64,000 nucleotides of DNA. It comes from Phycisphaerae bacterium. Lineage in GTDB: Bacteria; Planctomycetota; Phycisphaerae; Phycisphaerales; UBA1924. The stretch covers positions 214 through 64,213 of the forward strand of contig JAEUIW010000014.1 in NCBI GenBank assembly GCA_016794925.1, given 5' to 3'. The notes beneath the pieces were generated by a model. That model searched no databases. It was not told where the DNA came from and saw nothing but the letters and a program-made list of their open reading frames with translations. Within the stretch, counting starts at the first letter, position 1; each line of letters begins with the position of its first letter. Both the position numbers and the translations under genes were made by a program. Below are positions 11,001 to 28,150 of the stretch, one piece after another.

Positions 11001-14000
11001 GAGCCCAGGTCCTCCAGCGTCACGTCGCCGGTGTAATCGCTGGTGCGCTGCGAGACCGGCACCAGCGCCCCGCCGCCGTTGGCGGGGTTGATCGAGCCGG
11101 CGTTCACGCCCAGGGGCGCGCCGTTGGTCTGGGTGGGCCCGAACTGCAGGCCCAGGAAGGGCCCGATCTTCTTGGGGCCCACGCTGTTGGTCTGGGTGCG
11201 GCCGAGGTCGCCGCTCAGGATCGTCAGGTTCGTCAGGCCCAGCACGTCGACGGCGACCAGGTCGCCGTTGGGCGTGCGGTTCGAGATCGTCGCCAGCGCC
11301 GGGCCGGCGGTCTGATCGATCCGCAGCACGTCGATCTCCGTCGTGCCCTCGATGAAGATGCTGGACTGCGCGGCGTTGTTCGCTCCCGCCTGCGTGACGA
11401 TCGAGATGTGCCCGATGGACCCCACGCCCTTGTCGGTGCCGCTGATCCGCAGGTTGGCCCCGCCGATGAGCGTCGCGTCGATGCGCGCGATCGCCACGCC
11501 CCGCGACCCGGCCACCGGCAGCACCCGCACCCGGCCCGAGGACCCCGCCGCCGCGGCGGTGCCGTCGGCGATGCGGATGGTCACCGCGGCGCCCGAATCG
11601 TCGATGAGCGTGAGCGCCTGGTTGTACGTGAGGGTGTAGAACGAGTCCGGGTTGGCGTTGTCGAAGTCGCCGATGGCGATCTGGTCGAAGTCCGCGAAGC
11701 GGATGTCCGACCCGGCCCCGAGGTTGATGCCGGGCTGGCGGCGCTCGATCGAGCCCAGACGCCCCGCCACGCCCGAGGCGCCGATCACGAACCGGTCGAT
11801 GGTGGAGCCGGGGCTGGTCCGCAGGTTGAAACCGCCGCCCTGGATGAACGCGCCGACGAGGATCCCGCCGATGTCCCCGTTGCCGCCGTTCACGCCCGTG
11901 CGCACGTTGACCACCTCGGCGTCGGTCTGGAACGAGCCGACATCCTGGAAGAACCGCACGGCCCCGCGCCAGTCGAGCAGGCCGATCCGCCCGCCCACCT
12001 GCAGGTCCAGGTCGAGCACGTCGCCCTCGCCGGTCCCCACGCCCACCACCAGGGCCTGCCCGGTGACAAACACGCCCAGGTCGCCGCCGATGGTGAACTT
12101 CGGCCCCGGGGAGCCGTCGTTCCGCACCCCGTACACGTCCGAGCCCGCGTAGATGCTGTAGAGGTTCCCCGGCGTGCTCACGGACAGCTCGCGGACGTAG
12201 AGCAGTTGGTCCACCCCGAGCGCGGTGTTGATGACCTCTGAGGGGTTGGTCTCGGCGCCCTCGCCGCCCACGTAGCCGGTGCCGATCCGGATCGCGCCGA
12301 CGCTCCCCGAGAGCACACTGATGTTCACCGGGCTCTGGAAATTGCCCGTGCGGGCGCCGGAGCGGAACGAGCCCAGCGTGGTGGGCAGCATGCCCGTCAT
12401 CGTCACCACGTACTGCTGCGCCCGGTCGAAGCCGCCCTCGACGGGCGTGTTGAGCACGAGGTAGTACACGTCCGTGTACTCCGGCTCGAACCGGAACCGC
12501 GACGCCAGGTCGTTCTTCGTGCCCCCGAGCGTGAAGAAGCCGAAGCGGTCGCGGAAGCCGCTCAGCGGGGACTGCACCGACGAGTTGTTGTCCCCGTTGA
12601 GGCGCGACTGGCTCAGGAACGAGTAGTCCGTGGCCGCCAGCACCCGGCCGTCACGGTCCACGATCCGCGCATAGCCGCCGGTCACCGCGAAGCCGCCCGA
12701 CCACAGCACGTCCACCGTCAGCGGGCTGCCGGGGCCCGCCGCGAACGCGTACACGTCCGCGGGATCGTCGTTCGCGTTGACCGGGTCCTGGAAGCCCAGG
12801 TCGCCCGTGATCCGCACCGCGGTCCCCGCGTTGCCGACGTACTCGGCGCTGCCGATGGAGTCGTTGCGGAAATGTGAATTGCCGAACGCCACCGCCTGGT
12901 TGGACGGGAAGTCGTTGTTGAAGAGCACCAGCCTGAAGACGTCCGTCTTGTCCGTCAGCGTCCCGGTGTTCGCGAACCCGGTCCCGTACTGGAACTCGCG
13001 CTCGGCGTGCTCGAAGTAGTTGATCGCGGGCTTGGCCGGATCGTTCAGGTCCCCCTGCACGGTCACGCTGGACTGGTTCCGCCCCGCGATCGCGATCTCG
13101 CCCACCGTGCGCCCCACGAAGATCTGGGACCGCGTCGAGTTCATCGGCTCTTCGAAGGTGGTCGCCGTCACGTCGTCACGGACCCACACGCCGCTGTCCG
13201 ACGCCACGATGTACTGGCCCATGTCCCCGGTCACCGCCACGCTGCCCAGCATGTACCCGATCGCCAGCCGGTCCACGCTGCCCGTGAACCGCGAGCTGCC
13301 GTGCACCGCGCCGTGGATGATCACCGACCCGATGTTCGCGCCGTTGGTCGTGAACAGCCCCTGGTTCGGAGCCTGGAACAGGTCGGGGTTGCTGATCAGC
13401 GTCGCCGGCGACGGGTTGGTGAGGTACGCCGTCGGGTTCGTCAGCGAGCGCACGAACGGGCTGCCGACCACGACCGAGCCCGAGCCCTTGGGCAGGCCGA
13501 TGACCCGCGGCGGCGTCTCGTTGGTCAACGCGTACCCGAAGCCCGCGCTCTCAAATTCCGAGAAGAACCCGCTCACCTCGGAGGGGAGCGTGAACGGCGT
13601 GTTCTGGATGTTCAGGCCGTACATCGTGAAGTTGGAGCGCGCGTCCGTGCCGCTGAACACGATCCGGCCGAGGCCGTCGTTGAAGTCCGGCACCCCGTCC
13701 TTGTTGATGTCCACCCGCAGCACGTCGCCGGTGCCCAGCAGGTCCGTCGTCAGCTGCATGTCCCGGTCGTTAAGGTCGAAGAACTGCGCCGAGGCGCCCA
13801 CCGGGCCCGTGAAGCTCACGCGCGCCCCCCACGCCCGCGGCGCCAGCAGCGCGTTGAAGATCGGCGGCGGGATGAACGCGTTCAGGTTGTCGATCTGGAA
13901 CTGATCGAAATACGCGCCGTTGAGCTGGTTCGCCGAACTGAACCGCACCTCGTTGAAGAACCCGCCGTTGGCCGTCGTCAGCGTGTACCGGCGCGTCCCG

Positions 14001-14683
14001 TCGGGGAGCGTCTGGAAGGGCGCCGCGGCGTTGCCGCCGAAGAAGCGCCGCACGATGGTCCCTTGCAGCAGGAGCTCGACCTGGGTCCCCGTGTTGGGAT
14101 CGGTGTCCAACCCGCCGTTCTGCGGGCCGATGTCCAGCACCACCGACCGCGCCGCCCGCGCGATCGGGTTGGGCGGGACCGCGTCGAAGCCCGACTCGTA
14201 CACGAACGACAGTTGGCCCAGGCCGCTGATCGACACGCGCAGGTCCAGGTCCGTCGTGCTGCCGGTGCCCACCACCAGCGCCGCGCCCGCCCCCACGCCG
14301 TACGCCAGCCGCGCCCCGCTGCCCTGAAAGCGATAACCCGGCGGCGTCGCCGTGCCCTGGCCCTCATCATCGAAGGGCTCGACCACCTGCGTGTCGGCCG
14401 ATTGCGCCGGCGTGAAATCCCGGAACAAGTACGGCAGCACGTACCCGAAGTCCGCGCCCACCGTGCCCAGGCCCGTGGTCGGATCGACCGCGTCCGCCGT
14501 CACCGTCAACGCGAACAGCAATCGCCGCTCTTCGAGCGCGCTCATCATCGGCTCAGGAGCCGCGCCCGCCGCGCGCGCCAGCCGCTCCGCACGCGGGTCC
14601 GCCCGCGTCTCTTCTCGATTCGCCGCCCCACGAGTTCCGGTCAGCCCGAGCGATCCCAGCAGCCGCGCCATCGTCCGCTTCAT
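5072..14683 (-). CDS. giant (3203 aa) secreted/surface beta-helical repeat protein with PPC-like domains
   Basis: Uninterrupted 9.6-kb ORF with GAGGAG 5 nt upstream of the ATG. N-terminal MKRTMARLLGSLGL... followed by ALEERRLLFA. Long central region of degenerate ~20-25 aa G.I..I.V.G.I..S.I repeats. D.DVY/D.DLY motifs of pre-peptidase C-terminal-type domains. Normal non-shadow amino-acid composition. Confidence 0.9.
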   Translation of the reverse strand: MKRTMARLLGSLGLTGTRGAANREETRADPRAERLARAAGAAPEPMMSALEERRLLFALTVTADAVDPTTGLGTVGADFGYVLPYLFRDFTPAQSADTQVVEPFDDEGQGTATPPGYRFQGSGARLAYGVGAGAALVVGTGSTTDLDLRVSISGLGQLSFVYESGFDAVPPNPIARAARSVVLDIGPQNGGLDTDPNTGTQVELLLQGTIVRRFFGGNAAAPFQTLPDGTRRYTLTTANGGFFNEVRFSSANQLNGAYFDQFQIDNLNAFIPPPIFNALLAPRAWGARVSFTGPVGASAQFFDLNDRDMQLTTDLLGTGDVLRVDINKDGVPDFNDGLGRIVFSGTDARSNFTMYGLNIQNTPFTLPSEVSGFFSEFESAGFGYALTNETPPRVIGLPKGSGSVVVGSPFVRSLTNPTAYLTNPSPATLISNPDLFQAPNQGLFTTNGANIGSVIIHGAVHGSSRFTGSVDRLAIGYMLGSVAVTGDMGQYIVASDSGVWVRDDVTATTFEEPMNSTRSQIFVGRTVGEIAIAGRNQSSVTVQGDLNDPAKPAINYFEHAEREFQYGTGFANTGTLTDKTDVFRLVLFNNDFPSNQAVAFGNSHFRNDSIGSAEYVGNAGTAVRITGDLGFQDPVNANDDPADVYAFAAGPGSPLTVDVLWSGGFAVTGGYARIVDRDGRVLAATDYSFLSQSRLNGDNNSSVQSPLSGFRDRFGFFTLGGTKNDLASRFRFEPEYTDVYYLVLNTPVEGGFDRAQQYVVTMTGMLPTTLGSFRSGARTGNFQSPVNISVLSGSVGAIRIGTGYVGGEGAETNPSEVINTALGVDQLLYVRELSVSTPGNLYSIYAGSDVYGVRNDGSPGPKFTIGGDLGVFVTGQALVVGVGTGEGDVLDLDLQVGGRIGLLDWRGAVRFFQDVGSFQTDAEVVNVRTGVNGGNGDIGGILVGAFIQGGGFNLRTSPGSTIDRFVIGASGVAGRLGSIERRQPGINLGAGSDIRFADFDQIAIGDFDNANPDSFYTLTYNQALTLIDDSGAAVTIRIADGTAAAAGSSGRVRVLPVAGSRGVAIARIDATLIGGANLRISGTDKGVGSIGHISIVTQAGANNAAQSSIFIEGTTEIDVLRIDQTAGPALATISNRTPNGDLVAVDVLGLTNLTILSGDLGRTQTNSVGPKKIGPFLGLQFGPTQTNGAPLGVNAGSINPANGGGALVPVSQRTSDYTGDVTLEDLGSPLNGYLNGIVIRTGALTLAEIGGAVGDIVLQGGDATAFIQSLIVNRDGVTPVGRFDGIVGVIYAFDIVRIDVGDGLRGPGPSPLAQAGIFADNDIQTIIAGGRIASVVMSGLILASNVNLDVSPPGSGTSIVNGLGPITMTNARVDGAFFGAATLDAWWLSARFYGLVQRADARIPRGEISNLRLVNSDLLRSKVYGALLTNLTVAGGAFDASSVEIEGNIISIAADEFRNSTKDGERREYRFNEIRASGDVGTIRTTPAGGGTGGTGGKNQVIGDMSDLEIDVHGQLLTLLTARNIVRSKIDFDDRVVSIVALNDLRASTITTGRLESLAVTGDIRSSSITTAGAIVSIIAGGSITSTDIFSEGPDGRIDLVQVGQFLTGNIRASGPIATITSTGGQIIATITTTDASDGSLGLLSAAGDLQVSLDIARDVGTVTSGGSVGGRGGGGEVLDTLNVRGNLGSITARGQIYADVRVGGSITGVITIGRVVALPGNDLVSRASFRAFGRINSFVITGDFDGSIISESGGIGTVLITDGSFRPGNQIVARDGDIVRVAITGGHLMGDIIADGTIFAVEVLAAANGFWGDMGVNPNLSDAIRFDDLRNQLPPGATPVPTFQGPQIRAGRNIGLVNIQKGSMWESSIVAGWAIGRIYVDGVILNDDITPGLGGSFIVAGDSIDTIEVGDFAGGLIVHAGIIDLGRDGRPGGVGVNTDTVKWGRINSILFRKSTGAVTISAGMVAGFDGVYNTGDDLLANGISSIGTVVVAGAPPTQSSVYADNGLGFTSPGLRRGGPGQNQSNTTLVPPIVPATGLIPAAGLEITTATGERARIFFTGPGRAFWSQATQTVNIINSTSASTIVVQAITGTLTNFSVLTNDGSSLGLMDIQPSIFGNSNFFADGYVGTMRFGYIQTSGVIGSGMDITTFVSGPMTSGSMLTNFIVAATIFGDYGTLAPATSKLTAGAGGSITITGRHAGIVNVARNLGSLTINGRVDGGRSRVGLFLGSYVSGAMFRAGLSTGDGIGSVVVNGTADDSYIYAGADLGSDAAFGGLGDAADRVTDGALGPVTINGDFTRSDVAAGVSRGADGFLGTPDDVADDGRSSIGNVIVTGGNVGSGLNSESYRVSSTGTIGAVTVGGAAFNASGNFAVVRVGADPFPVEVARLEVGEDSNIWTAAIVFNQPVTQSTISPALTVAEVRNGGALTVGLAEGSDYTLRYDPASNSALVTFSPDVTRRDLPQAPGVPGPGTYRFTIDAAILRGQSQRNRLDGNSDGQAAGDTDDYIANQVVGDAGDKGGNGFIGNNGGLRVDFYPAADLNLVMDGPASQDGLPDTNKPYTIKGAIGDHPDSDPVFFRTGGDVDLYQIFLRAGQILRLGKLEGAASEAQRVVASGNAFNGTAGLTPSLINNPELLSLPVQPAGYDDITLRDEYLVRETGTYFVIVAGSLTDTGSSQQVNFGDNSVYNVPPEGASTGTYSFTIEVFDDADTGFAGDTDSGDGVVVGTPPSASQFGSGDTIVRGSYTYTLFRDGPTEATWVVSGSNGGGIFSERRAGPDGVFASGATTGDDQIVSFVAGAIGQGGASGVPSQVQSDVDVYRLNNGDPIVPGTRIRATMRLNEFGSNLGYITPLRERLGENVVFRIPDFRGAVQMAVFETTSATGVGDAQLIAAPSAFKAVSGTPKAVTGSDLSNHYGYDENGDFFIEFIAPPRQGIAGSVPARLALYVQGVLRSDYTLEIRTLGVDTYSVQPQNIFIETRGGSINWIEAGRNITTSLRSYTTSGVGFSGFISGVAVDTYVLNNTITALNTLFRDAGVNVVLSTNVAQFENQDFSTLVLTGSNEPPAFFDNQTFGASQRADAFNADRNDQAVVFIPALSVLQYNPGKVGIDQFVQSLTAASARRIGELLGLRLQEVFVSPAGTTAPPVDVMASDSVPNIPTAGAVYRFSTTAREISSNTDLLGSTNFFLGLQADVSLLQRILPLR

Positions 14684-15209: not shown

Positions 15210-15283
15210 GGGCTTGTAGCTCAGGTGGCTAGAGCGCACCCCTGATAAGGGTGAGGTCGCAGGTTCGACTCCTGCCAGGCCCA
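15210..15283 (+). tRNA. tRNA-Ile (anticodon GAU)
   Basis: Hand-folded cloverleaf. Acceptor GGGCTTG/CAGGCCC (one G-U), D stem GCTC/GAGC, anticodon stem CACCC/GGGTG, loop CTGATAA, T arm GCAGG-TTCGACT-CCTGC, discriminator A. 74 nt. CCA is not encoded. Confidence 0.9.
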
Positions 15284-17511: not shown

Positions 17512-18486
17512 ATGCCCGATGTCGGTGCGCCAACTCAGCCCCCCGCTCCTCCTCCTACGGAGGATCTCGGACGCGAGGTGGACCGGCTCCTCGAGGAGAC
17601 GGACCAGGCCGTCGGTCGCCGCGACTCTCTGCAACCTGGCGCGCCCGCCGCGACGGGTTCCAAGCCCGACAACGACTTTCTATCTCTGGACGATGCGCTG
17701 GCGGAAGCCGTCGATGAAGCTCGCGCCGATGCTTCCACGAACCAGGCTCCCGCGCCCGCGGCGACCGATCCCGGCCCGAGCACCTCCGAGCCGCTGCCGC
17801 AATCCCCGCCCGCTTCAACCAATCAGCCCGACCCCGCTCCCGAGGCGATCGGCGACCTTGACGCGGCGCTGGCGGAGGCCGCGGACGAGGCCATTGACGA
17901 GACCGATCCCGACGGCGCGATTTCCGTCGAGCCTCCTCTCGCCCCGGCCGCCGCCCAATCAGCGATGCGTCAACCCGACACGGCCCCGGGCAACATCGTG
18001 CCGAATGACGCGGACGACACCACACCGTCCGCGCGGCCGGAAGCCCGCGCCGAATCGGCCTCGCAAACGTCCGTCGATCCAGCGCCGAAGGCCGCGCGCG
18101 CCACGGGGCGGGACTTGCCGTCGCCGATCGAGCGAACGCTGGCACGCTTCGCCGCGCTGCCGCCCAAGGTCCATCAAACGCTCGGCTGGTGCGCGGCGAT
18201 CCTGGTGTTCAACGCCGTGGCCGTTTGGATCATCGCGCTGGTCAAGCTGCCGACCCCCGGCCCTTCCGTCATCGCGCCGACGGATGCCGCGCACGCAGCG
18301 GCGGGCGTGGGCGAGCCCGGGCACGAGGCACCCGGCGGCAAGGGCGACGCTCATGCCGCGAAGAAGCCCGCTCGCGCCGGTGAATCCAGGGAAAGCAAGA
18401 GCCCGCCAAAATCTCCGAAGAAGACCGATACGCATGAATCCAAGCCCGCGGCCAAGAAGGGCGCTGCGGGCGCGTCGGGGCACTGA
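17512..18486 (+). CDS. hypothetical acidic Pro/Ala-rich protein with one TM helix and Lys-rich tail
   Basis: ATG at 17512. Internal repeat LDDALAEAVDEA / LDAALAEAADEA. One TM segment (WCAAILVFNAVAVWIIALV). Basic C-terminus. No recognisable family. Confidence 0.5.
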   Translation: MPDVGAPTQPPAPPPTEDLGREVDRLLEETDQAVGRRDSLQPGAPAATGSKPDNDFLSLDDALAEAVDEARADASTNQAPAPAATDPGPSTSEPLPQSPPASTNQPDPAPEAIGDLDAALAEAADEAIDETDPDGAISVEPPLAPAAAQSAMRQPDTAPGNIVPNDADDTTPSARPEARAESASQTSVDPAPKAARATGRDLPSPIERTLARFAALPPKVHQTLGWCAAILVFNAVAVWIIALVKLPTPGPSVIAPTDAAHAAAGVGEPGHEAPGGKGDAHAAKKPARAGESRESKSPPKSPKKTDTHESKPAAKKGAAGASGH

Positions 18487-18495
18487 CGCCCGGGG

Positions 18496-18894
18496 CTACT
18501 TGTTTTTCTTCTTGTCGGCCGTGCCCTGGGGCTCTTCTTCCTCAAAGAAATGCTTCTCGAGCGCCGCGGCGATGTGTGTGGAACCGTCCTGCTTGGCCCG
18601 CGCGATCATCCACACGATGGCCTCCTCGAGGTACTGGTCCGCGTTGAACTTCTCGCCGGACGCCCGCCGTCCAATGCCCGCGGAAAAGCTGTGGTCGAAC
18701 GCCTGCTTGTGCGCTTCCTCGACGAGATAGTCGTAGTACTCCTTGTACTCACGATAGTTCTCGACTTCCGAGATGATGGTCTTCATGTCCCACGCCACTT
18801 CCTTGCTGGCGTTGAACTTGCGGTACGCCGGGTACGCGAAGACCACAACCAGGCCCAGAAGAGCAAGGGCAATCCGGATCTTGTAATACTCCAT
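18496..18894 (-). CDS. hypothetical small membrane-anchored protein (low G+C)
   Basis: MEYYKIRIALALLGLVVVFAYPAY N-terminal anchor. K/E/Y-rich soluble part. A hand count gives 28/60 G+C in the line starting at 18721. Confidence 0.55.
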   Translation of the reverse strand: MEYYKIRIALALLGLVVVFAYPAYRKFNASKEVAWDMKTIISEVENYREYKEYYDYLVEEAHKQAFDHSFSAGIGRRASGEKFNADQYLEEAIVWMIARAKQDGSTHIAAALEKHFFEEEEPQGTADKKKNK

Positions 18895-19065
18895 ACTCCA
18901 CGCGTCCTTTCCGCGCGGCGAGCGCGTCCGCCATTTCGGAACGCGCAACCCCGGCGCATCGGGATATTACCGCGCGCCATGTCGAACGCAAGATGACATG
19001 TTTGCGCGCCGCGGCGGGAGAATTCCCACGTCACACGAATTCGTGTGTTTCTCGCCCCGGCGCAC

Positions 19066-22693: not shown

Positions 22694-23665
22694 TCAGACC
22701 TCGGACGCGCCCTCCCATTCCTCGATCGTGCGCGGCCAGTCATCGCGCAGCAGCCACGACAGCGAGCGATCCGCGAGCAGCCGCCCGCCGTTCTGGCACA
22801 CGGGGCAATAGTTGGTTTCGTGCTCCGCGTACACGATGCGCTGGACCGGGGCGCCGCACACCGGGCACGGCTCGCGGTAGCGGCCGTGGACGGCAAAGCC
22901 GGGCCGGAACGCCGTGATCTCGCCGGGACGAGGGAACCGCCCCGTGTTGTCGGTGCCCCCGCCGACCACGCGGCCCAGGCCGAACCGGCCACGCAGCTCG
23001 TCGGTCCATTTCAGGAGCACGCGCCGAGCCGCGGCGTGCAGCGCGGCGCAGCCGCCATCGTCCAGGCGGCCCGTCAACGCGACCGGGCTGAGCCGCGCCG
23101 CGTGCAGGATCTCATCTGAGTAGGCGTTGCCGATGCCGTCGAAGGTGCGCGGACTTGTAAGCGCCCGCTTGAGGGTGCGATTCTCGCGCCGCAGGGCCGC
23201 GGCGAACTCACCTTCCGAGCACCCGAGCACATCGAGACCGCCCGGGTTCATGGCCGCGAGCGCCGCTTCGCCGCGCACAAGCCAAAGCCCCGCGCGCTTC
23301 TTGGTCGACGCCTCGGTCAGCACCAACGTGCCGGGGGGCAGGGTTCCGTCACGCGCGCCCGCGCGCTCGAACGCAAGGGCGGCGAGATCGATCTTCGATG
23401 CGGGACGGGCGCCCGGCGGCTTCCACAGCAGCCGCCCGGCGATCATCAGGTGCAGCACGAGGAACAGCCCGCCCTCGGCGTGGAGCACGATTCGCTTGCC
23501 CAGCCGCGAGACCGCGATGACGGCGCGGCCCTCGACCGCCTCCGGCGGCGGATCGATGGTGCGGAGCAGAAAGGGGCTCCTGATGATGAGCCGCGCCAGC
23601 GTGGCCCCGACGACGCGGGGGCGCAGCACCTCGGTATAGACGGTGATGTCAGGAAGCTCGGGCAC
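22694..23665 (-). CDS. Fpg/Nei family DNA glycosylase / AP lyase
   Basis: N-terminal MPELPD catalytic Pro2-Glu3. H2TH motif FDGIGNAYSDEILHAARLSP. C-terminal zinc finger CPVCG...YCPVCQ. Confidence 0.85.
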   Translation of the reverse strand: MPELPDITVYTEVLRPRVVGATLARLIIRSPFLLRTIDPPPEAVEGRAVIAVSRLGKRIVLHAEGGLFLVLHLMIAGRLLWKPPGARPASKIDLAALAFERAGARDGTLPPGTLVLTEASTKKRAGLWLVRGEAALAAMNPGGLDVLGCSEGEFAAALRRENRTLKRALTSPRTFDGIGNAYSDEILHAARLSPVALTGRLDDGGCAALHAAARRVLLKWTDELRGRFGLGRVVGGGTDNTGRFPRPGEITAFRPGFAVHGRYREPCPVCGAPVQRIVYAEHETNYCPVCQNGGRLLADRSLSWLLRDDWPRTIEEWEGASEV

Positions 23666-23759
23666 GTCGAGACACTAATCGAGACGGCTTCACACCGTCC
23701 GCGCCGACTCACCTCGCAACCCGAACAATTATCCACCGGCAGGCAGCGGATCGATGTAA

Positions 23760-23788
23760 TTGCGTAGACCTGACCCGACTCGTATCCT
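23760..23788 (+). promoter_or_regulatory. candidate sigma70-like promoter of the DUF5131-TcmP cassette
   Basis: TTGCGT-N17-TATCCT in a low-G+C intergenic region, about 50 nt upstream of the GTG start at 23839 (AGGGGA 5 nt before the start). Confidence 0.35.
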
Positions 23789-23838
23789 AACAACATTCGG
23801 ATGCGAGCTCGCGCTCGCGAAGGGGCCAGGGGATCCAC

Positions 23839-24636
23839 GTGGCACAATCTTCTTCGATCGAGTGGACGGACGCGACTTGGAACCCAGTCGCCGGGTGTAC
23901 TCCCGTTTCGCCAGGCTGCTTGAATTGCTATGCGGCACGGATGGCGCTCCGCTTGGCCACCGTCGGAGGCCGGACGGGAGACAAGTACCGCGGCACCGCG
24001 AAGCGCTCGCGCGACGGGCGTCCGGTCTTTGCAGGGAAGATCAATACCGACCCGGACATGCTGGACGTGCCCTTGCGTTGGCGCAAGCCCAAGCGCATCT
24101 TCGTGAACTCGATGAGCGACCTGTTTCACGAGGGCGTGCCGCCCGCGTTCATCTCGCGGTGCTTTGACGTGATGAACCGAGCGCACTGGCACACGTTTCA
24201 GGTGCTGACCAAGCGGCCCGAGCGAGCGTTGCGGCTCGCGGCGGATCTGCCGTGGTCGCCAAACATCTGGCTAGGGACGAGCGTGGAGAGTGTGATGTAC
24301 ACGCACCGCGTTCACACGCTGACGAAGGTGAATCAGGCGACGACGAAGTTTCTGTCGGTCGAGCCGCTGCTCGGGCGCATTCCCAAGCTCCCTGTGGATG
24401 GGATCGACTGGGTGATCGTGGGAGGTGAGAGCGGACCAGGCGCTCGTCCGATGGAGGCTGAGTGGGTGCGCGAAATCCGCGACCGGTGCAACGATCACAA
24501 CGTCGCGTTCTTCTTCAAGCAATGGGGCGGGGTGAGGAAGTGTGAAACAGGGAGAAGGCTGGATCGACGGGTGTGGAACGAGATGCCACCGGAGCACGAT
24601 CATGTCCGTGAAGAGCCGCTGGCCATCCTTGCTTGA
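23839..24636 (+). CDS. DUF5131 / phage Gp37-Gp68 family protein (three-Cys motif)
   Basis: N-terminus SSIEWTDATWNPVAGCTPVSPGCLNCYA (family signature with CX6CX2C). Also F.NSMSDLFH, ..LTKRP.R, SVEPLL, DWVIVGGESGP.ARP, FFFKQWGG. Confidence 0.85.
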   Translation: MAQSSSIEWTDATWNPVAGCTPVSPGCLNCYAARMALRLATVGGRTGDKYRGTAKRSRDGRPVFAGKINTDPDMLDVPLRWRKPKRIFVNSMSDLFHEGVPPAFISRCFDVMNRAHWHTFQVLTKRPERALRLAADLPWSPNIWLGTSVESVMYTHRVHTLTKVNQATTKFLSVEPLLGRIPKLPVDGIDWVIVGGESGPGARPMEAEWVREIRDRCNDHNVAFFFKQWGGVRKCETGRRLDRRVWNEMPPEHDHVREEPLAILA

Positions 24637-24637
24637 G

Positions 24638-25462
24638 ATGGCGAAGGTAGACGATGGGCTTGCATTCCGGGACTGCGGCTCATGGACTGCGGACAAGCTG
24701 TTTTTTTGGCATGAGTACCTCAGCATTACGACGACCGCGATGGTCGGGAACTCGAATTGGAAGGCCGGACTCTCCTACGTGGATCTGTTTGCGGGACCCG
24801 GCATTTGCCGGGTGCGAGAGACTGGCCAGCGGCTTCCCGGGTCTGCGATAATCGCCGCGCACGCGCCGAAGCCGTTCGAAGTCATACATCTCGCGGAACT
24901 TGACGCGGGGTCGGCGGACGCGTGCGAAGCCCGAATGAAGCTATCGCCGGCCAAATCCCGGTTTCACATGCATCGCGGTGACTGCAATCAGCTGGTTCAC
25001 GCAATTGCCAAGGCACTGCCTCTTCGGAGCCTGACGCTCGCATTTGTCGATCCACCTGGCTTGGACATCGAGTTTGACTCACTACGCGCGCTATGCACGG
25101 GCCGCGCCGTTGATCTCCTGGTGCTCTTTGCGGATGCGGTCGATGCGGCTCGAAACGTTGATCTCTACGAGGCAGTTCCAGAGCACAAGATGGACCGCAT
25201 GCTGGGCGAGGGCTCGGAATGGAGGGACCGCTGGAGTAGGTTGCTAAACCGCGTTGGATTCAGGACGCGCGAGTTCTTTGCCAGCGAGTTCATCGAGCAA
25301 TTGAAAAAGCACCTAAAATACACCGTGTTTCGGCAGCACACGATGGCCGCGAAGGGCAAGCCGCTGTATCGCATCATCTACGCATCGCGCAATGATCGTG
25401 GCTTGGATTTCTGGAACAAGGCGGTGCGGAAGGACCGGCAAGGTCAGAGCGAATTGTTCTAG
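24638..25462 (+). CDS. three-Cys-motif partner protein TcmP-like
   Basis: Immediately follows the DUF5131 gene (TGAGATG junction; alternative overlapping ATG at 24602). Matches my recollection of TIGR04474 context and size. Contains VDLFAGPG and FVDPPG motifs. Low G+C. Confidence 0.7.
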   Translation: MAKVDDGLAFRDCGSWTADKLFFWHEYLSITTTAMVGNSNWKAGLSYVDLFAGPGICRVRETGQRLPGSAIIAAHAPKPFEVIHLAELDAGSADACEARMKLSPAKSRFHMHRGDCNQLVHAIAKALPLRSLTLAFVDPPGLDIEFDSLRALCTGRAVDLLVLFADAVDAARNVDLYEAVPEHKMDRMLGEGSEWRDRWSRLLNRVGFRTREFFASEFIEQLKKHLKYTVFRQHTMAAKGKPLYRIIYASRNDRGLDFWNKAVRKDRQGQSELF

Positions 25463-25467
25463 GTCCG

Positions 25468-27192
25468 CTACAACTCCACCACCTGCATATCCGCCGTCTG
25501 CTCCACCGGCACGCTCGCGGCACACACACCCGTCGCGAACACGCTCAACTCGCCGGGGTGTCGCGTCGCCATCGCGCTCCGCGCGTTCGCCGCGTTGAAG
25601 TGCGTACACAGCCCCGCCGCGGCCAGTGCCGCATCGCCCCCGGCGGCATGCACAAGATCGGTCCCGATCTGCGCCTCGGCGCGGGCGCCTTCGCGGGGTG
25701 GGATGGCCTGCTCGAAGGCCTGCACCATGCCCCGCGCGTTCTCGAAGGAGCCGGATTTTTCGACCCACGGCGCGCCCGGCAGCAGCACGTCGGCCCCGTC
25801 CGAAATCGGGCCCGCGAGGGTGTCGATCGCGACCACGAACTTGCCCGCGAGGGCGTCGAGCAACTCCTTGCCCGCCCAGCCGCCGGTCGTGTAGTTGCCG
25901 GTGACGATCACCCCGCCGATGTCGCTCGATCCGCCGCCCTTGCCCAGACGCGCCACCGCCTGCGCGTACGTCAGCACTCCCCCGCTCCCCGCGCCGAGCA
26001 CGGCCTCGAGCACGCGGCGCACGCCCCGCGCGTTGGGCGCCTTCTCGGCGTACACCCGGAAGGCGTTGGGCGCATCCGGCGCCGACCCCACGGGATACAC
26101 GCGGTCCTGCCCGCGGGTGGGGATCGGCCCCACCGCGGCGCCCGCGCGGGGGTCGAGGGCCCGTGCCGCGGCGGCCAGCGCGAACGCGTCCTCGCACGAG
26201 AGCATGGGGCTGACCATCAGCAGCAGACGCCCTCCGCCCGCGACGACTTTCTTCAGCCCCTCGGCGGCCTCGCGCAGGGCCCGGCCCCACTCCGTGCCCA
26301 CGGGCGTGCCGAACTGCCGGCGGCGGGGCTCGCCAAGCCGGTCGTCGGAGTGAACGTGCTTCCAGCCGAAACGCACCTCGTCGCTGATCCACCAGCGGTT
26401 CACGGCCATGTTGGTGCGCGGCTTGACACGGTACACCTTGCCCTCGTTGTGCTCGACGAGAATGTTGTCGCCGCTGGCGGTGATGCCGTCGATGCTGGGC
26501 GTGCTCTTGAGGAACCACACCCGCTGCGCGAAGAGGAAGTCCTTCTCGAGCAGCGCCCCCACCGGGCACAGGTCCACCACGTTGGCGCTGAGCTCGTTGT
26601 CCAGGGCCCGCCCGGGGAAGACGTCGATCTCCTCCTTGTTCCCGCGCCCCGAGACGCACAGCTCGGCCGTGCCCGAGACCTCGCGCGTGAAACGCACGCA
26701 GCGCGAGCACATGATGCAGCGGTCGGCGTACAGGTAGACGTGGGGGCCCAGGTCCTTCTTGGGCTGCTTGACCTTCTGCTCCTCGAAGCGGCTGGCGCCG
26801 CGCCCGTACTCGTAGCTGTAGTCCTGCAGGAAGCACTCGCCGGCCTGGTCGCACACCGGGCAGTCAAGCGGGTGATTGATGAGCAGGTACTCCATCACCG
26901 CCTTCTGGTTGGCGATCGACTTTGGCGAGTCCGTGTACACCACCATGCCCTCCGCCGCCGCGGTCTGGCAGGTGGGGAGCAGCTTGCCGCCCATCAACGG
27001 CTCGAGCGCGTTGTTGTTGCGGGGGTTGGGCGCCCACACCTCGGCCAGGCAGATGCGGCACGAGGCCACGATGCTCAGCCCGTCGTGGTAGCAGTACTGC
27101 GGCACAGCCACACTGGCGCGGTTCGCGGCCTGGAGGATCATCTCCCCGGGCTTAAACTCGCATTCCCGACCGTTGATCGTCAGCTTGGGCAT
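25468..27192 (-). CDS. nuoG: NADH-quinone oxidoreductase subunit G-like Fe-S protein
   Basis: 2Fe-2S ferredoxin N-terminus (CYHDGLSIVASCRICLAEV). HPLDCPVCDQAGECFLQD and CIMCSRCVRF 4Fe-4S motifs. Molybdopterin-oxidoreductase-like C-terminal half. Confidence 0.8.
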   Translation of the reverse strand: MPKLTINGRECEFKPGEMILQAANRASVAVPQYCYHDGLSIVASCRICLAEVWAPNPRNNNALEPLMGGKLLPTCQTAAAEGMVVYTDSPKSIANQKAVMEYLLINHPLDCPVCDQAGECFLQDYSYEYGRGASRFEEQKVKQPKKDLGPHVYLYADRCIMCSRCVRFTREVSGTAELCVSGRGNKEEIDVFPGRALDNELSANVVDLCPVGALLEKDFLFAQRVWFLKSTPSIDGITASGDNILVEHNEGKVYRVKPRTNMAVNRWWISDEVRFGWKHVHSDDRLGEPRRRQFGTPVGTEWGRALREAAEGLKKVVAGGGRLLLMVSPMLSCEDAFALAAAARALDPRAGAAVGPIPTRGQDRVYPVGSAPDAPNAFRVYAEKAPNARGVRRVLEAVLGAGSGGVLTYAQAVARLGKGGGSSDIGGVIVTGNYTTGGWAGKELLDALAGKFVVAIDTLAGPISDGADVLLPGAPWVEKSGSFENARGMVQAFEQAIPPREGARAEAQIGTDLVHAAGGDAALAAAGLCTHFNAANARSAMATRHPGELSVFATGVCAASVPVEQTADMQVVEL

Positions 27193-27499
27193 GTCCGCTC
27201 CGGTCTTTGTCCGTTCACCCGGGTATGCGCGTCGCTCATCAGCCAGGGCTTGGGTCGAGATGATAGCGACCGCGCCGTGCGCCCCCGTCAGTCATCGCAT
27301 CCAATGGTGATCAACCAAGGCCACCGGACAAGACCGGTAACCTCGGAGCCTGCCGGCGCGCGCCTCAATTTCGCCGCCTCTCAACAATAATGCCGGCGAT
27401 TGCAACTCCGAACTCTTGAATCCCGTTTGGTGAGTTGTAAACTCTTGCCGAAACAGGGCATAGCTTGCCGACACACCAGAATCAGGGAGAATTTGGCCC

Positions 27500-28150
27500 A
27501 TGCGCACCGTTTGTTTGTTCGCACCCCTCGCCGTCACGCTTTCCATCGCCGGAGCGGCGACCGCCGACTCCGTGAACATCGCTTCCAATTCGCAGGCGAG
27601 CACCGAAAAACTCGGTGCCTATTCCGGCTCCATCACCTATTCGGCGCTGACCGCTTCGACGGGCACGCTGGTCTTCTCGCTCACCAACACGACCTCCCCG
27701 GCACTGGGCGGCTTCATCACCGGATTCGTGTTCGACCTGAATTCGGCCGCCGCTAACGCGAACGTCGTGCTCAGCGCCGCCTCGCACGGGACACTCACCA
27801 ACGCCGCGAATCAGAACGCCGCGCCCTTCGGCAGCTACGAACTTGGTGCGGCGATCGGCGGTAGCTTCCTGGGTGGCGGCAATCCCACCAGCGGCATCGC
27901 CGTGGGCGCGACGGGCACGTTCTCGTTCAACGTCACGGCTTCCGACGCCGGCGCGCTCAACGCTCACTCGTTCCTGAACGCCTCGCGGACCTACCCGATG
28001 GTGGTCCGGTTCCGCGGGTTTGCAAACGGCGGATCGGACAAGGTTCCCGGGCAGGAGAACGCCCCCGAGAATATCCCGCTGCCTTCGGCGGCCGCGATCG
28101 GCCTGGCGGGCCTCGGCGTGATCGCGTCGCCGCGCCGCCGCCGCGCCTGA
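27500..28150 (+). CDS. secreted protein with PEP-CTERM-like C-terminal sorting tail
   Basis: Signal MRTVCLFAPLAVTLSIAGAATA. C-terminus IPLPSAAAIGLAGLGVIASPRRRRA (Pro-x-Pro, TM helix, Arg cluster). Confidence 0.7.
   Translation: MRTVCLFAPLAVTLSIAGAATADSVNIASNSQASTEKLGAYSGSITYSALTASTGTLVFSLTNTTSPALGGFITGFVFDLNSAAANANVVLSAASHGTLTNAANQNAAPFGSYELGAAIGGSFLGGGNPTSGIAVGATGTFSFNVTASDAGALNAHSFLNASRTYPMVVRFRGFANGGSDKVPGQENAPENIPLPSAAAIGLAGLGVIASPRRRRA

What the first reader, a model, noticed from the sequence alone, without database searches (positions are those of the whole stretch)
23666..25467. Low-G+C two-gene island: DUF5131 (Gp37/Gp68, three-Cys) plus TcmP partner, inserted between Fpg/Nei and nuoG
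The pair is sharply lower in G+C than its surroundings. Hand counts are 32/60 in the line at 24661 and 29/60 in the line at 25261, against roughly 40-45/60 elsewhere. It sits between two core genes and has its own sigma70-like promoter candidate (TTGCGT-N17-TATCCT). The two genes are translationally coupled (TGAGATG). To my knowledge this conserved pair has no experimentally established function. Compact size, atypical composition and lack of any phage structural context fit a horizontally acquired nucleic-acid modification or defence-type cassette. An 8-bp AT-rich inverted repeat flanks it (GAACAATT at 23723-23730, AATTGTTC at 25452-25459). That is weak evidence for cassette ends.
Basis: partly seen in the sequence, partly recalled or inferred. 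Interest (0 to 1): 0.7.

Follow-up and report, generated by a model that had tools for sequence, protein, structure and literature searches.

The report
DUF5131–TcmP accessory gene pair beside nuoG
This is a real low-G+C two-gene operon for a three-cysteine radical-SAM-type protein and its methyltransferase-like partner, an ordinary member of a widespread, untested "candidate phage-defence" pair that most likely chemically modifies DNA bases.

Summary
The core observation holds. Window 23839-25462 (+) carries two overlapping genes, DUF5131/PF07505 (265 aa, invariant C-x6-C-x2-C) and TcmP/TIGR04474 (286 aa). They form the lowest-G+C stretch of the 64 kb (60.6% against 70.1%), between an Fpg/Nei-like gene and nuoG. 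Three details do not hold. TcmP starts at ATG 24602, a 35-nt overlap, not at TGAGATG. The promoter matches only 7 of 12 consensus positions. The 8-bp inverted repeat is at chance level.

The pair is already catalogued as PADLOC candidates PDC-M41 and PDC-M30, which are untested.

New here:
- TcmP models confidently (pLDDT 94) as an RlmJ-like N6-adenine methyltransferase fold with SAM motifs and the catalytic Asp conserved.
- Many TcmP domains are fused to spore-photoproduct-lyase-family radical SAM domains, some next to restriction-modification or DNA methyltransferase genes.
- The pair lies directly downstream of nuoG in at least four other Phycisphaerae-like lineages, and a sister contig shows the empty site.
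- DUF5131 similarity follows NuoG similarity, but the TcmP gene has been swapped repeatedly.

Best reading: an accessory, exchangeable two-subunit SAM-dependent nucleic-acid (probably DNA) modifier, likely conflict-related. It is a new member of a known but uncharacterised kind.

The parts
23666..23838 (.). 173-bp intergenic region between the divergently transcribed Fpg/Nei-like gene and the DUF5131 gene.
   Evidence: Sequence. The promoter scan reports nothing here. There is no nucleotide conservation with L081 upstream of the start codon.
23839..24636 (+). DUF5131 (Gp37/Gp68, PF07505) gene, 265 aa, GTG start. Its product is the three-Cys, radical-SAM-type subunit.
   Evidence: Pfam 1.3e-90. 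PADLOC PDC-M41B 2.4e-101 and PDC-M30B 1.8e-93. phrog_2045. The N-terminus MAQ..SIEWT matches the consensus of 121 homologues. AF2 model pLDDT 89.9. dN/dS against L081 is 0.11.
23896..23928 (+). Codons for the invariant three-cysteine motif C20-x6-C27-x2-C30 (GCTPVSPGCLNCY). This is the putative [4Fe-4S] ligand loop, lying after the first strands and before helix 31-42.
   Evidence: Invariant columns C20, C27 and C30 in alignment A3. Secondary structure of the model.
24591..24594 (+). GGAG Shine-Dalgarno-like element, 7 nt upstream of the TcmP start and inside the DUF5131 coding sequence.
   Evidence: Sequence.
24602..25462 (+). TcmP (TIGR04474) gene, 286 aa, ATG start, overlapping the DUF5131 gene by 35 nt. 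Its product is the RlmJ-like Rossmann methyltransferase-fold subunit.
   Evidence: NCBIfam 130.5 bits. PADLOC PDC-M41A 3.5e-19. Conserved N-terminus. AF2 pLDDT 94.2. Top PDB fold matches are RlmJ, E 5e-9.
24782..24802 (+). Codons for TcmP SAM-binding motif I, D61-L-F-A-G-P-G67.
   Evidence: D61, F63, G65 and G67 are invariant in 120 homologues. This is the lowest-entropy block.
25049..25060 (+). Codons for TcmP motif IV, D150-P-P-G153. These align to the catalytic D164-P-P-Y of RlmJ.
   Evidence: D150 is invariant and P151 near-invariant. hhalign pairs PGSPLIA...IDP with RlmJ residues 95-166. D164 is essential in RlmJ (PMC3814359).
25463..25467 (.). 5-bp spacer between the TcmP stop and the stop of the convergent nuoG gene. 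There is no terminator hairpin here.
   Evidence: The same tight convergent junction occurs in L081, L123, L116/L172 and L125.

Best explanation
The region is a compact accessory operon for a two-subunit, S-adenosylmethionine-dependent enzyme that acts on nucleic-acid bases, most likely in DNA.

DUF5131 is the radical-type subunit. Its invariant C-x6-C-x2-C loop is inferred to hold a [4Fe-4S] cluster that reductively cleaves SAM.

TcmP is an RlmJ/Dam-like Rossmann methyltransferase-fold subunit. It is inferred to bind SAM, to recognise the target and flip out the base (the RlmJ catalytic Asp of motif IV and an invariant Lys in the N-terminal helix, K32, are both kept), and so to supply specificity. 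It may also methylate.

The two genes are expressed together through a 35-nt overlap.

The module is not core. It is lost and regained among relatives, and its TcmP half is exchanged by recombination. It belongs to the untested PADLOC candidates PDC-M41 and PDC-M30, so its most likely biological role is in phage/mobile-element conflict, as a DNA mark or a DNA-directed effector used alone or alongside restriction-modification-type systems.

Shown: gene identities, folds, conserved motifs, gene overlap, domain fusions, presence/absence polymorphism and partner swapping.
Inferred: Fe-S and SAM chemistry, DNA as the substrate, and a defence role.
For: Identity:
- Pfam, NCBIfam, PADLOC and PHROG hits.

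TcmP:
- AF2 pLDDT is 94.2.
- The 14 best PDB fold matches are E. coli RlmJ and its homologue LPL1258 (E 5e-9 to 1e-6, TM 0.5-0.59).
- hhalign aligns PGSPLIA...IDP to RlmJ residues 95-166, E 1.9e-4.
- 16 of 120 homologues hit Pfam RsmJ weakly.
- Motifs I to IV are conserved.
- The RlmJ active site resembles those of DNA m6A methyltransferases (PMC3814359).

DUF5131:
- The three Cys are invariant.
- RadicalSAM.org/SFLD lists it as a radical SAM subgroup, in Megacluster-5 beside spore photoproduct lyase (PMC9477430).
- Its best PDB fold matches include LIAS, SuiB, SPL, LAM, MiaB and RlmN.

Functional link between the two subunits:
- TcmP sits next to DUF5131 in every locus examined, whatever the gene order or orientation.
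- At least 52 clusters of about 630 aa and 43 of about 710 aa fuse TcmP (151-212 bits in the four scanned) to an SPL-family radical SAM domain with CxxxCxxC. The longer form also has a wHTH domain.

DNA and conflict context:
- One fusion lies 41 bp downstream of a 1,388-aa Eco57I/MmeI-type RM-like enzyme.
- Another fusion sits with an N6_N4 DNA methyltransferase inside an arg operon.
- A Leisingera plasmid carries the pair next to two Abi genes.
- In Gordonia phage BaxterFox the pair lies between the integrase and the immunity repressor.
- The PDC candidates were derived from embedding in BREX, DISARM and type I RM loci.
- There is precedent for an SPL-like radical SAM enzyme modifying a DNA base: M6 gp53 (PMC8989533).

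Accessory status and exchange:
- Empty site in L132 against the cassette in L123.
- G+C dips over the pair in eight loci.
- Between the window and L081, DUF5131 is 87% identical by global alignment and TcmP is 38%, with the breakpoint at the TcmP start.
Against: - No biochemical or genetic test exists for any member. PDC-M41 and PDC-M30 are explicitly untested.
- DUF5131 does not hit Pfam Radical_SAM, and its motif is not the canonical CxxxCxxC.
- Its PDB fold matches are weak (E 5e-3 or worse, TM 0.48 or lower) and are interleaved with ordinary TIM barrels.
- No profile-level similarity to the SPL-like domain of the fusions was detected.
- TcmP lacks the RlmJ helical subdomain. Only D-P of motif IV is conserved across the family, so it may bind rather than methylate.
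- RlmJ itself is an rRNA enzyme that is inactive on ssDNA, so RNA remains a possible substrate.
- In this window and in four other planctomycete loci the neighbours are housekeeping genes, not defence genes.
- TcmP is rare in phage collections: 3 of 50,697 phage records and 3 IMG/VR contigs.
Confidence: 0.5

Rival explanations
1. Accessory RNA-modification pair. TcmP, like RlmJ, targets an rRNA or tRNA adenine, and DUF5131 adds radical chemistry in the manner of RlmN/Cfr. The pair would tune translation rather than act on DNA.
For: The best structural match of TcmP is the 23S rRNA m6A2030 methyltransferase RlmJ. RlmN and MiaB are among the weak fold matches of DUF5131. In Planctomycetota the pair sits among housekeeping genes such as nuoG, a tRNA synthetase, recG and an ABC transporter.
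Against: - Presence is patchy and an empty site exists.
- G+C is low and the partner gene is swapped.
- The pair occurs on conjugative plasmids, in a prophage lysogeny module and next to Abi or RM genes.
- Some fusions carry a wHTH domain and neighbour DNA methyltransferases.
- The rapidly diverging specificity-like subunit fits poorly with an invariant rRNA or tRNA target.
Confidence: 0.15
2. DNA-repair module. DUF5131 is an SPL-like lyase that reverses a base lesion, and TcmP serves as the lesion-recognition subunit.
For: - DUF5131 is grouped beside SPL.
- TcmP is fused to SPL-family domains.
- DUF5131 lies in the DNA replication/metabolism modules of mycobacteriophages.
- The neighbour here is the glycosylase Fpg/Nei, and in L090 it is RecG.
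Against: - The SPL-like domains score far below the SPL equivalog cut-offs (61-83 against 400 bits).
- Bona fide SPL needs no methyltransferase-like partner (established knowledge).
- The Fpg adjacency is unique to this genome: 0 of 80 Fpg loci carry the pair.
- A repair enzyme would not be expected to swap its recognition subunit or to be embedded in RM and BREX loci.
Confidence: 0.12
3. Infection-triggered effector that makes a toxic or chain-terminating nucleotide, or damages nucleic acid (viperin-like or Abi-like), rather than a constitutive modifier.
For: A radical SAM enzyme in a candidate defence context. Abi neighbours on the Leisingera plasmid. No cognate nuclease gene accompanies the pair.
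Against: The TcmP fold and motifs point to a polymer-base-flipping methyltransferase, not a free-nucleotide enzyme. The wHTH domain in the fusions also points to a polymer substrate. DUF5131 shows no similarity to viperin in the fold search.
Confidence: 0.1
4. Essentially selfish cargo of a homing-type element with no host function, or a decaying remnant.
For: An HNH/NUMOD4 homing-endonuclease-like gene lies directly beside the pair within the L123 insertion. The pair recurs at one intergenic site.
Against: Most copies, including this one, have no endonuclease gene. Both ORFs are intact, keep all family-invariant residues, and DUF5131 is under purifying selection (dN/dS 0.11).
Confidence: 0.05

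Closest known systems
PADLOC phage-defence candidates PDC-M41 and PDC-M30 (Payne et al., bioRxiv 10.1101/2024.01.29.577857)
   Same: Both window proteins hit the PDC-M41 models (B 2.4e-101, A 3.5e-19) and are adjacent and co-oriented. M41 and M30 share the DUF5131 family (FAM_00989) and differ in the partner family.
   Different: The candidates were defined from copies embedded in BREX, DISARM or type I RM loci and are untested. This copy stands alone between housekeeping genes, with no recognisable defence neighbour.
TIGR04474 TcmP / PF07505 DUF5131 (Gp37/Gp68) pair, as named in NCBIfam and Pfam
   Same: Both models are hit above their curated cut-offs, and the genes are adjacent as the family name implies.
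   Different: Nothing differs at the family level. Within the family this TcmP is divergent: its nearest non-self relative is 60% identical, whereas DUF5131 has a 90% identical relative.
E. coli RlmJ (23S rRNA m6A2030 methyltransferase; PDB 4BLU, 6QE0)
   Same: Best structural match. The order of motif I (hhDxxxGxG), the PGSPLIA strand and the motif IV Asp-Pro is shared, and there is an invariant Lys in the N-terminal helix.
   Different: - About 13% identity.
- The window protein has no Pfam RsmJ hit.
- The RlmJ helical subdomain (residues 47-98) is replaced by a short hairpin.
- An extra helical insertion (about residues 178-238) is variable.
- The family conserves only D-P, not DPPY.
- TcmP always has a three-Cys partner, which RlmJ lacks.
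Spore photoproduct lyase and SPL-like radical SAM enzymes acting on DNA (SPL; phage M6 gp53 glycinyl-thymine isomerase, PMC8989533)
   Same: - DUF5131 is placed next to SPL in RadicalSAM.org Megacluster-5.
- SPL structures are among its fold matches.
- TcmP domains are fused to SPL-family domains.
- M6 gp53 shows that an SPL-like enzyme can install a DNA base modification.
   Different: DUF5131 has C-x6-C-x2-C rather than CxxxCxxC. It shows no significant sequence-profile similarity to the SPL-like domain, and its fold similarity is weak (E about 1e-2).
TIGR04471 / TIGR04470 'radical SAM mobile pair' proteins A and B
   Same: DUF5131 weakly resembles pair protein A (63 bits, E 2.7e-17). The SPL-like domain of the fusions weakly resembles pair protein B. 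Both are mobile two-gene radical SAM systems.
   Different: The scores are far below the equivalog cut-offs (355 and 410 bits). The partner here is a methyltransferase-fold protein, not a second radical SAM protein.

Membership tests
PF07505 DUF5131 (Gp37/Gp68) | HMM score above the Pfam gathering threshold over the full domain | tested here: met
   303.6 bits against a cut-off of 28.9; residues 5-250 match profile positions 2-243 of 243.
PF07505 DUF5131 (Gp37/Gp68) | N-terminal three-cysteine motif | tested here: met
   C20, C27 and C30 are invariant across 121 sequences including the window protein.
TIGR04474 TcmP | HMM score above the NCBIfam cut-off | tested here: met
   130.5 bits against a cut-off of 53; profile positions 2-262 of 263.
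TIGR04474 TcmP | Encoded next to a three-Cys-motif (PF07505-type) protein | tested here: met
   35-nt overlap with the DUF5131 gene.
PADLOC PDC-M41 | Both component models hit by adjacent genes | tested here: met
   M41B 2.4e-101 and M41A 3.5e-19.
PADLOC PDC-M41 | Anti-phage activity | not testable with these tools
   The source paper lists the PDC systems as 145 untested candidates.
PADLOC PDC-M41 | Embedding in or proximity to known defence systems | tested here: not met
   The genes examined between 16.5 and 32 kb encode RNA methyltransferase, peptidase-like, Macro, Fpg, NuoG, DUF4190 and Fur products, plus five ORFs with no family hit; none is defence- or mobility-related. Such proximity is seen for some relatives.
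Radical SAM superfamily | Canonical CxxxCxxC motif and a Pfam PF04055 hit | tested here: not met
   The motif is C-x6-C-x2-C. There is no Radical_SAM hit at E<=0.01.
Radical SAM superfamily | Partial (beta/alpha) TIM-barrel core resembling solved radical SAM enzymes | tested here: inconclusive
   Matches to LIAS, SuiB, SPL, LAM, MiaB and RlmN have E 5e-3 to 6e-2 and TM 0.48 or lower, and are mixed with ordinary TIM barrels. SFLD/RadicalSAM.org nonetheless lists DUF5131 as a subgroup.
Radical SAM superfamily | [4Fe-4S] binding and reductive SAM cleavage | not testable with these tools
   Needs anaerobic biochemistry.
RlmJ family (PF04378) | HMM membership | tested here: not met
   The window protein has no Pfam family at E<=1. 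16 of 120 homologues give weak hits, best 0.0032.
RlmJ family (PF04378) | RlmJ-type fold | tested here: met
   Foldseek top hits are 6qdx, 6qe0 and 4blu, E 5e-9 to 6e-7, probability 1.0, TM 0.5-0.59.
RlmJ family (PF04378) | Motif IV DPPY with catalytic Asp | tested here: inconclusive
   The window protein has D150-P-P-G. Only D150 (invariant) and P151 (>=90%) are conserved in the family. The Asp aligns to RlmJ D164.
RlmJ family (PF04378) | Inserted helical subdomain (RlmJ residues 47-98) | tested here: not met
   Between motif I and PGS the model has only short strands 68-71 and 77-79. RlmJ description from PMC3814359.
Spore photoproduct lyase (TIGR04070 / PF20903) | HMM membership of the DUF5131 protein | tested here: not met
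   No SPL hit in Pfam or NCBIfam. hhalign against the SPL-like domains of the fusions gives probability 0.1%.
Classical genomic island / integrative element | Integrase or transposase, tRNA target, flanking direct or inverted repeats | tested here: not met
   The only tRNA is at 15210. No mobility gene was found among the neighbours. There is no 8-bp direct repeat, and the 8-bp inverted repeat is at chance level.
Restriction-modification system | A cognate nuclease gene with the modification gene(s) | tested here: not met
   There are only two genes. No nuclease domain was detected in either.

The most novel reading that the evidence does not exclude
DUF5131-TcmP (and the fused TcmP-SPL-like proteins) form a new class of DNA-base-modifying or DNA-directed defence enzymes. 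In them, a rapidly exchangeable RlmJ/Dam-like subunit selects and flips the target base, and a non-canonical three-Cys radical SAM subunit performs radical chemistry on it. In the paper read here (2021), SPL and phage M6 gp53 were the only radical SAM enzymes known to act on DNA, so this would add another such system, and one with swappable specificity.
Probability: 0.35. Interest if true: 0.8.

Novelty: new member of a known kind. Interest (0 to 1): 0.45.

Why it matters
The family is large. A profile of TcmP finds 5,002 clusters at 50% identity. DUF5131 saturates a search that caps candidates at 8,000 and occurs in 181 phage genomes. No member has a known reaction.

If the inference is right, these pairs and fusions would be a widespread source of unknown radical-SAM chemistry on DNA, with a modular specificity subunit. 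That is relevant to phage defence and counter-defence, to epigenetic marks that sequencing pipelines may misread, and to enzyme discovery.

This particular locus is an ordinary instance. Its value lies in the comparative handles it gave: the RlmJ-like fold, the SPL fusions, the partner swapping, and an occupied/empty site pair beside nuoG.

Tried and rejected
- Exact-sequence look-ups of the window TcmP (274-aa form) and of the 286-aa public record P0001 found no contig on record.
- A genome-contig scan with the Fpg/Nei protein returned 80 loci at 64% identity or less. None had NuoG, DUF5131 or TcmP nearby. The Fpg family itself is scattered across phyla.
- A sequence-only profile search of TcmP against the PDB gave only insignificant catechol-O-methyltransferase-like hits. 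The RlmJ relation needed the structure model.
- hhalign of the DUF5131 alignment against the SPL-like domain, both as a single sequence and as a 95-sequence profile, was not significant. A forced alignment lines up W-x-x-GC...C-x-x-CY and H...LTK, but this is not evidence.
- The inverted repeat as cassette ends is rejected.
- The sigma70-like promoter is weak and unconserved.
- The TGAGATG coupling is replaced by a 35-nt overlap.
- No tRNA or Rfam element lies near the pair.
- Window against its nearest NuoG relative (L093): there is no synteny beyond nuoG, so no empty site was found for this exact genome.
- Literature searches on DUF5131, TcmP, PF07505, TIGR04474, Gp37/Gp68, PDC-M41, PDC-M30, RlmJ-like, and SPL plus defence found no functional study.
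Full report
**1. What is there**

Two co-oriented ORFs lie between a divergent Fpg/Nei-like gene (22694-23665, -) and a convergent NuoG-like gene (25468-27192, -).

Gene A (23839-24636, GTG start, 265 aa):
- It is a full-length DUF5131/PF07505 protein, E 1.3e-90.
- It also matches phrog_2045 and PADLOC PDC-M41B and PDC-M30B.

Gene B:
- It passes the NCBIfam TcmP model TIGR04474 with 130.5 bits against a cut-off of 53.
- It matches PADLOC PDC-M41A.
- It has no Pfam family.

The nearest public record calls the source a Phycisphaerae MAG.

**2. Composition**

- The interval 23666-25467 is 60.6% G+C. That is the minimum of all 1,802-bp windows in the 64 kb (mean 70.0%, sd 2.4).
- GC3 is 0.78 for gene A and 0.71 for gene B, against 0.88 and 0.93 for the flanking genes.
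The window mean is 42/60.

**3. Details that do not hold**

TcmP therefore starts at ATG 24602, 7 nt after a GGAG, and overlaps gene A by 35 nt. Overlaps of 23-47 nt recur in relatives. Coupling is likely, but not at TGAGATG.
- *Promoter.* TTGCGT-N17-TATCCT matches the consensus at 7 of 12 positions. The scan does not list it, and the upstream DNA is not conserved in the closest relative.
- *Inverted repeat.* An 8-bp inverted repeat appears in 16% of shuffles of the two end windows. It is missing from four other cassette-bearing loci, and its right arm encodes the conserved C-terminus of TcmP.
- *Mobility signals.* No tRNA, Rfam element, integrase or transposase lies nearby.

**4. TcmP**

- With 120 homologues, AlphaFold2 gives pLDDT 94.2.
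- The 14 best PDB matches are E. coli RlmJ (23S rRNA m6A2030 methyltransferase) and its Legionella homologue, with E 5e-9 to 1e-6 and TM 0.5-0.59. Other class I methyltransferases follow.
- Profile-sequence alignment to RlmJ pairs the PGSPLIA strand and puts D150-P151 on D164-P165 of the catalytic DPPY motif (E 1.9e-4, probability 47%). The RlmJ sequence used was verified against PDB 4BLU.
- 16 of 120 homologues give weak Pfam RsmJ hits.
- The conserved blocks are the N-terminal helix (invariant K32), motif I DLFxGxG, PGSxxIA, GDxN, motif IV FxDP and DxxDxxRN. Residues 101-140 and 205-250 are variable.
- In RlmJ, K18 and D164 are essential, and the active site resembles those of DNA m6A methyltransferases (PMC3814359).
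- TcmP lacks the RlmJ helical subdomain. It is RlmJ-like in fold, not an RlmJ orthologue.

**5. DUF5131**

- C20, C27 and C30 are invariant in 121 sequences.
- The model (pLDDT 89.9) places this loop before the first long helix.
- PDB fold matches are weak (E 5e-3 or worse). They mix radical SAM enzymes (lipoyl synthase, SuiB, SPL, lysine aminomutase, MiaB, RlmN) with plain TIM barrels.
- There is no Pfam Radical_SAM hit.
- RadicalSAM.org/SFLD lists DUF5131 as a radical SAM subgroup in Megacluster-5, next to SPL (PMC9477430).
- dN/dS against the closest relative is 0.11, so the gene is under purifying selection.

**6. Evidence that the two work together, probably on DNA**

- TcmP-like genes sit beside DUF5131 in every locus examined, in different orders and orientations. 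These include planctomycete chromosomes, IMG/VR contigs, conjugative plasmids and Gordonia phage BaxterFox.
- A profile search turned up a 634-aa protein, P0264, that fuses TcmP (160 bits) to an SPL-family radical SAM domain (PF20903, 60 bits, CPFDCSWC).
- Its homologue search lists 52 clusters of this architecture and 43 clusters of about 710 aa. Two of the longer ones were scanned and are TcmP + GMT-like wHTH + SPL-like.
- One fusion lies 41 bp downstream of a 1,388-aa Eco57I/MmeI/N6_Mtase-type enzyme, with Fic and RadC upstream.
- Another fusion forms a three-gene insert with an N6_N4 DNA methyltransferase inside an arginine-biosynthesis operon.
- The Leisingera plasmid copy is next to two Abi genes.
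- In BaxterFox the pair lies between the integrase and the immunity repressor.
- In S. meliloti a TcmP gene (SMa2243) appears in the same expression table, directly after the defence gene hna (SMa2245), with a similar increase (PMC12445080).
- An SPL-like radical SAM enzyme that modifies a DNA base is known: M6 gp53 (PMC8989533).

**7. Status in the literature**

- PADLOC's PDC systems are 145 untested candidates obtained by 'guilt-by-embedding' in BREX, DISARM and type I RM loci.
- PDC-M30 and PDC-M41 share one family and differ in the partner family.
- No functional study of DUF5131 or TcmP was found.

**8. Is it an island?**

- No close genome was available. The best Fpg homologue is 64% identical, and none of 80 Fpg loci has nuoG or the pair nearby.
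- A small ENA contig, L081, carries DUF5131 at 90% aa identity by BLASTP (87% by global alignment) and 84% nt identity. Next to it is a TcmP only 38% identical with no nucleotide match, and then the nuoG 3' end in the same convergent layout.
- A metagenome scan with the NuoG C-terminus found the pair directly downstream of nuoG in three more distinct contig groups: L122/L123, L125 and L116/L117/L172. The L125 partner is a 388-aa TcmP closer to PDC-M30A.
- These loci are scattered in a NuoG tree.
- L132, the sister of L123, shows the empty site: nuoG, about 30 bp, a small membrane-protein gene, then truA. L123 has a 2.35-kb insert between nuoG and that small gene. The insert holds TcmP, DUF5131 and an HNH/NUMOD4 endonuclease-like gene.
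- L116 and L081 also have the small gene just beyond DUF5131. Many pair-less loci have nuoG followed by the small gene.
- G+C dips over the pair in every locus, most deeply in the TcmP gene.
- Pairwise identities show that DUF5131 tracks NuoG: window-L081 is 87% for DUF5131 and 60% for NuoG, and L125-L172 is 77% and 54%. TcmP does not track it: window-L081 is 38%, window-L123 is 50%, and the L125 partner is 21-29% identical to all others.
- Between the window and L081, dS is 0.71 for DUF5131, 1.1-1.3 for nuoG and saturated for TcmP. The nucleotide match ends 12 nt into TcmP.
- Reading: this is an old, frequently lost accessory module tied to the nuoG 3' end. Its partner gene is repeatedly replaced. 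The Fpg junction is specific to this genome.

**9. Verdict**

- The core observation is real.
It is wrong about the insertion site, the cassette ends, the promoter and the coupling junction.
- The locus is a typical member of a known, uncharacterised candidate family.
- The mechanism proposed here is a two-subunit SAM-dependent base modifier, with TcmP as the exchangeable targeting and methyltransferase-fold subunit and DUF5131 as the radical subunit, and DNA as the likely substrate. It is inferred from folds, motifs, fusions and context, and it needs biochemistry.

Noticed in passing
L091 5001-5732 (+) = NC_031226.1 32200-32931, Gordonia phage BaxterFox: A 251-residue tblastn match at 52% identity to DUF5131 lies on the + strand, where the record annotates only minus-strand ORFs (gp39-gp41). 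The DUF5131 gene looks unannotated or mis-stranded there. It is convergent with gp42, which is a TcmP (175 bits), and lies between the integrase gp37 and the immunity repressor gp43.
   Followed up: partly
L123 8737-9279 (-): A 180-aa HNH_3/NUMOD4 homing-endonuclease-like gene sits directly beside DUF5131, inside the 2.35-kb insert that the sister contig L132 lacks. This hints at homing-type spread to the nuoG-downstream site. Mycobacteriophage TChen also has an HNH gene right after its DUF5131 gene.
   Followed up: partly
L132 4658-4837; L123 9384-9578; L116 3005-3283; L081 2-94: A small membrane-protein gene (...IITII..LVVAT..ALWWWR...) follows nuoG in many related contigs and marks the far edge of the cassette. 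No copy was detected in the window, where the Fpg/Nei-like gene takes that position.
   Followed up: partly
L183 8001-11997 and L184 3156-7152: A three-gene insert sits inside an arginine-biosynthesis operon, between argG plus a TPR gene and argH. It comprises a TcmP-wHTH-SPL-like fusion, an unknown protein of 271-292 aa, and an N6_N4 DNA methyltransferase. It looks like an RM-type cassette that uses the fused relative of this pair.
   Followed up: no
L178/L179 3794-9905: A TcmP-SPL-like fusion lies 41 bp downstream of a 1,388-aa Eco57I/MmeI/TaqI_C-type methyltransferase-nuclease-like protein, with Fic and RadC genes upstream. The identical fusion protein is on record on 24 contigs, and the five places shown share this arrangement.
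   Followed up: no
window 5072-14683 (-): A single giant ORF of 3,203 aa with GC3 0.96. It was not characterised.
   Followed up: no
window 25468-27192 (-) and flanks: The NuoG-like gene is not flanked by other nuo genes. Downstream is the pair. Upstream is about 300 bp of non-coding DNA and an opposite-strand gene (27500-28150) whose product ends in a PEP-CTERM-like tail (by eye; no Pfam hit).
   Followed up: no
window 18400-19000 and 27200-27800: Two other G+C dips to about 0.60. The first covers a 150-aa ORF (18496-18948, -) with no Pfam family. The second covers the intergenic region upstream of nuoG and the start of the next gene.
   Followed up: no
alignment A3 against the SPL-like domains of the fusions: The comparison is statistically insignificant. 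Even so, the forced alignment lines up W-x-x-GC...C-x-x-CY and H-x-x-x-LTK between DUF5131 and the SPL-like domain. A more diverse DUF5131 profile might settle whether they are homologous.
   Followed up: partly
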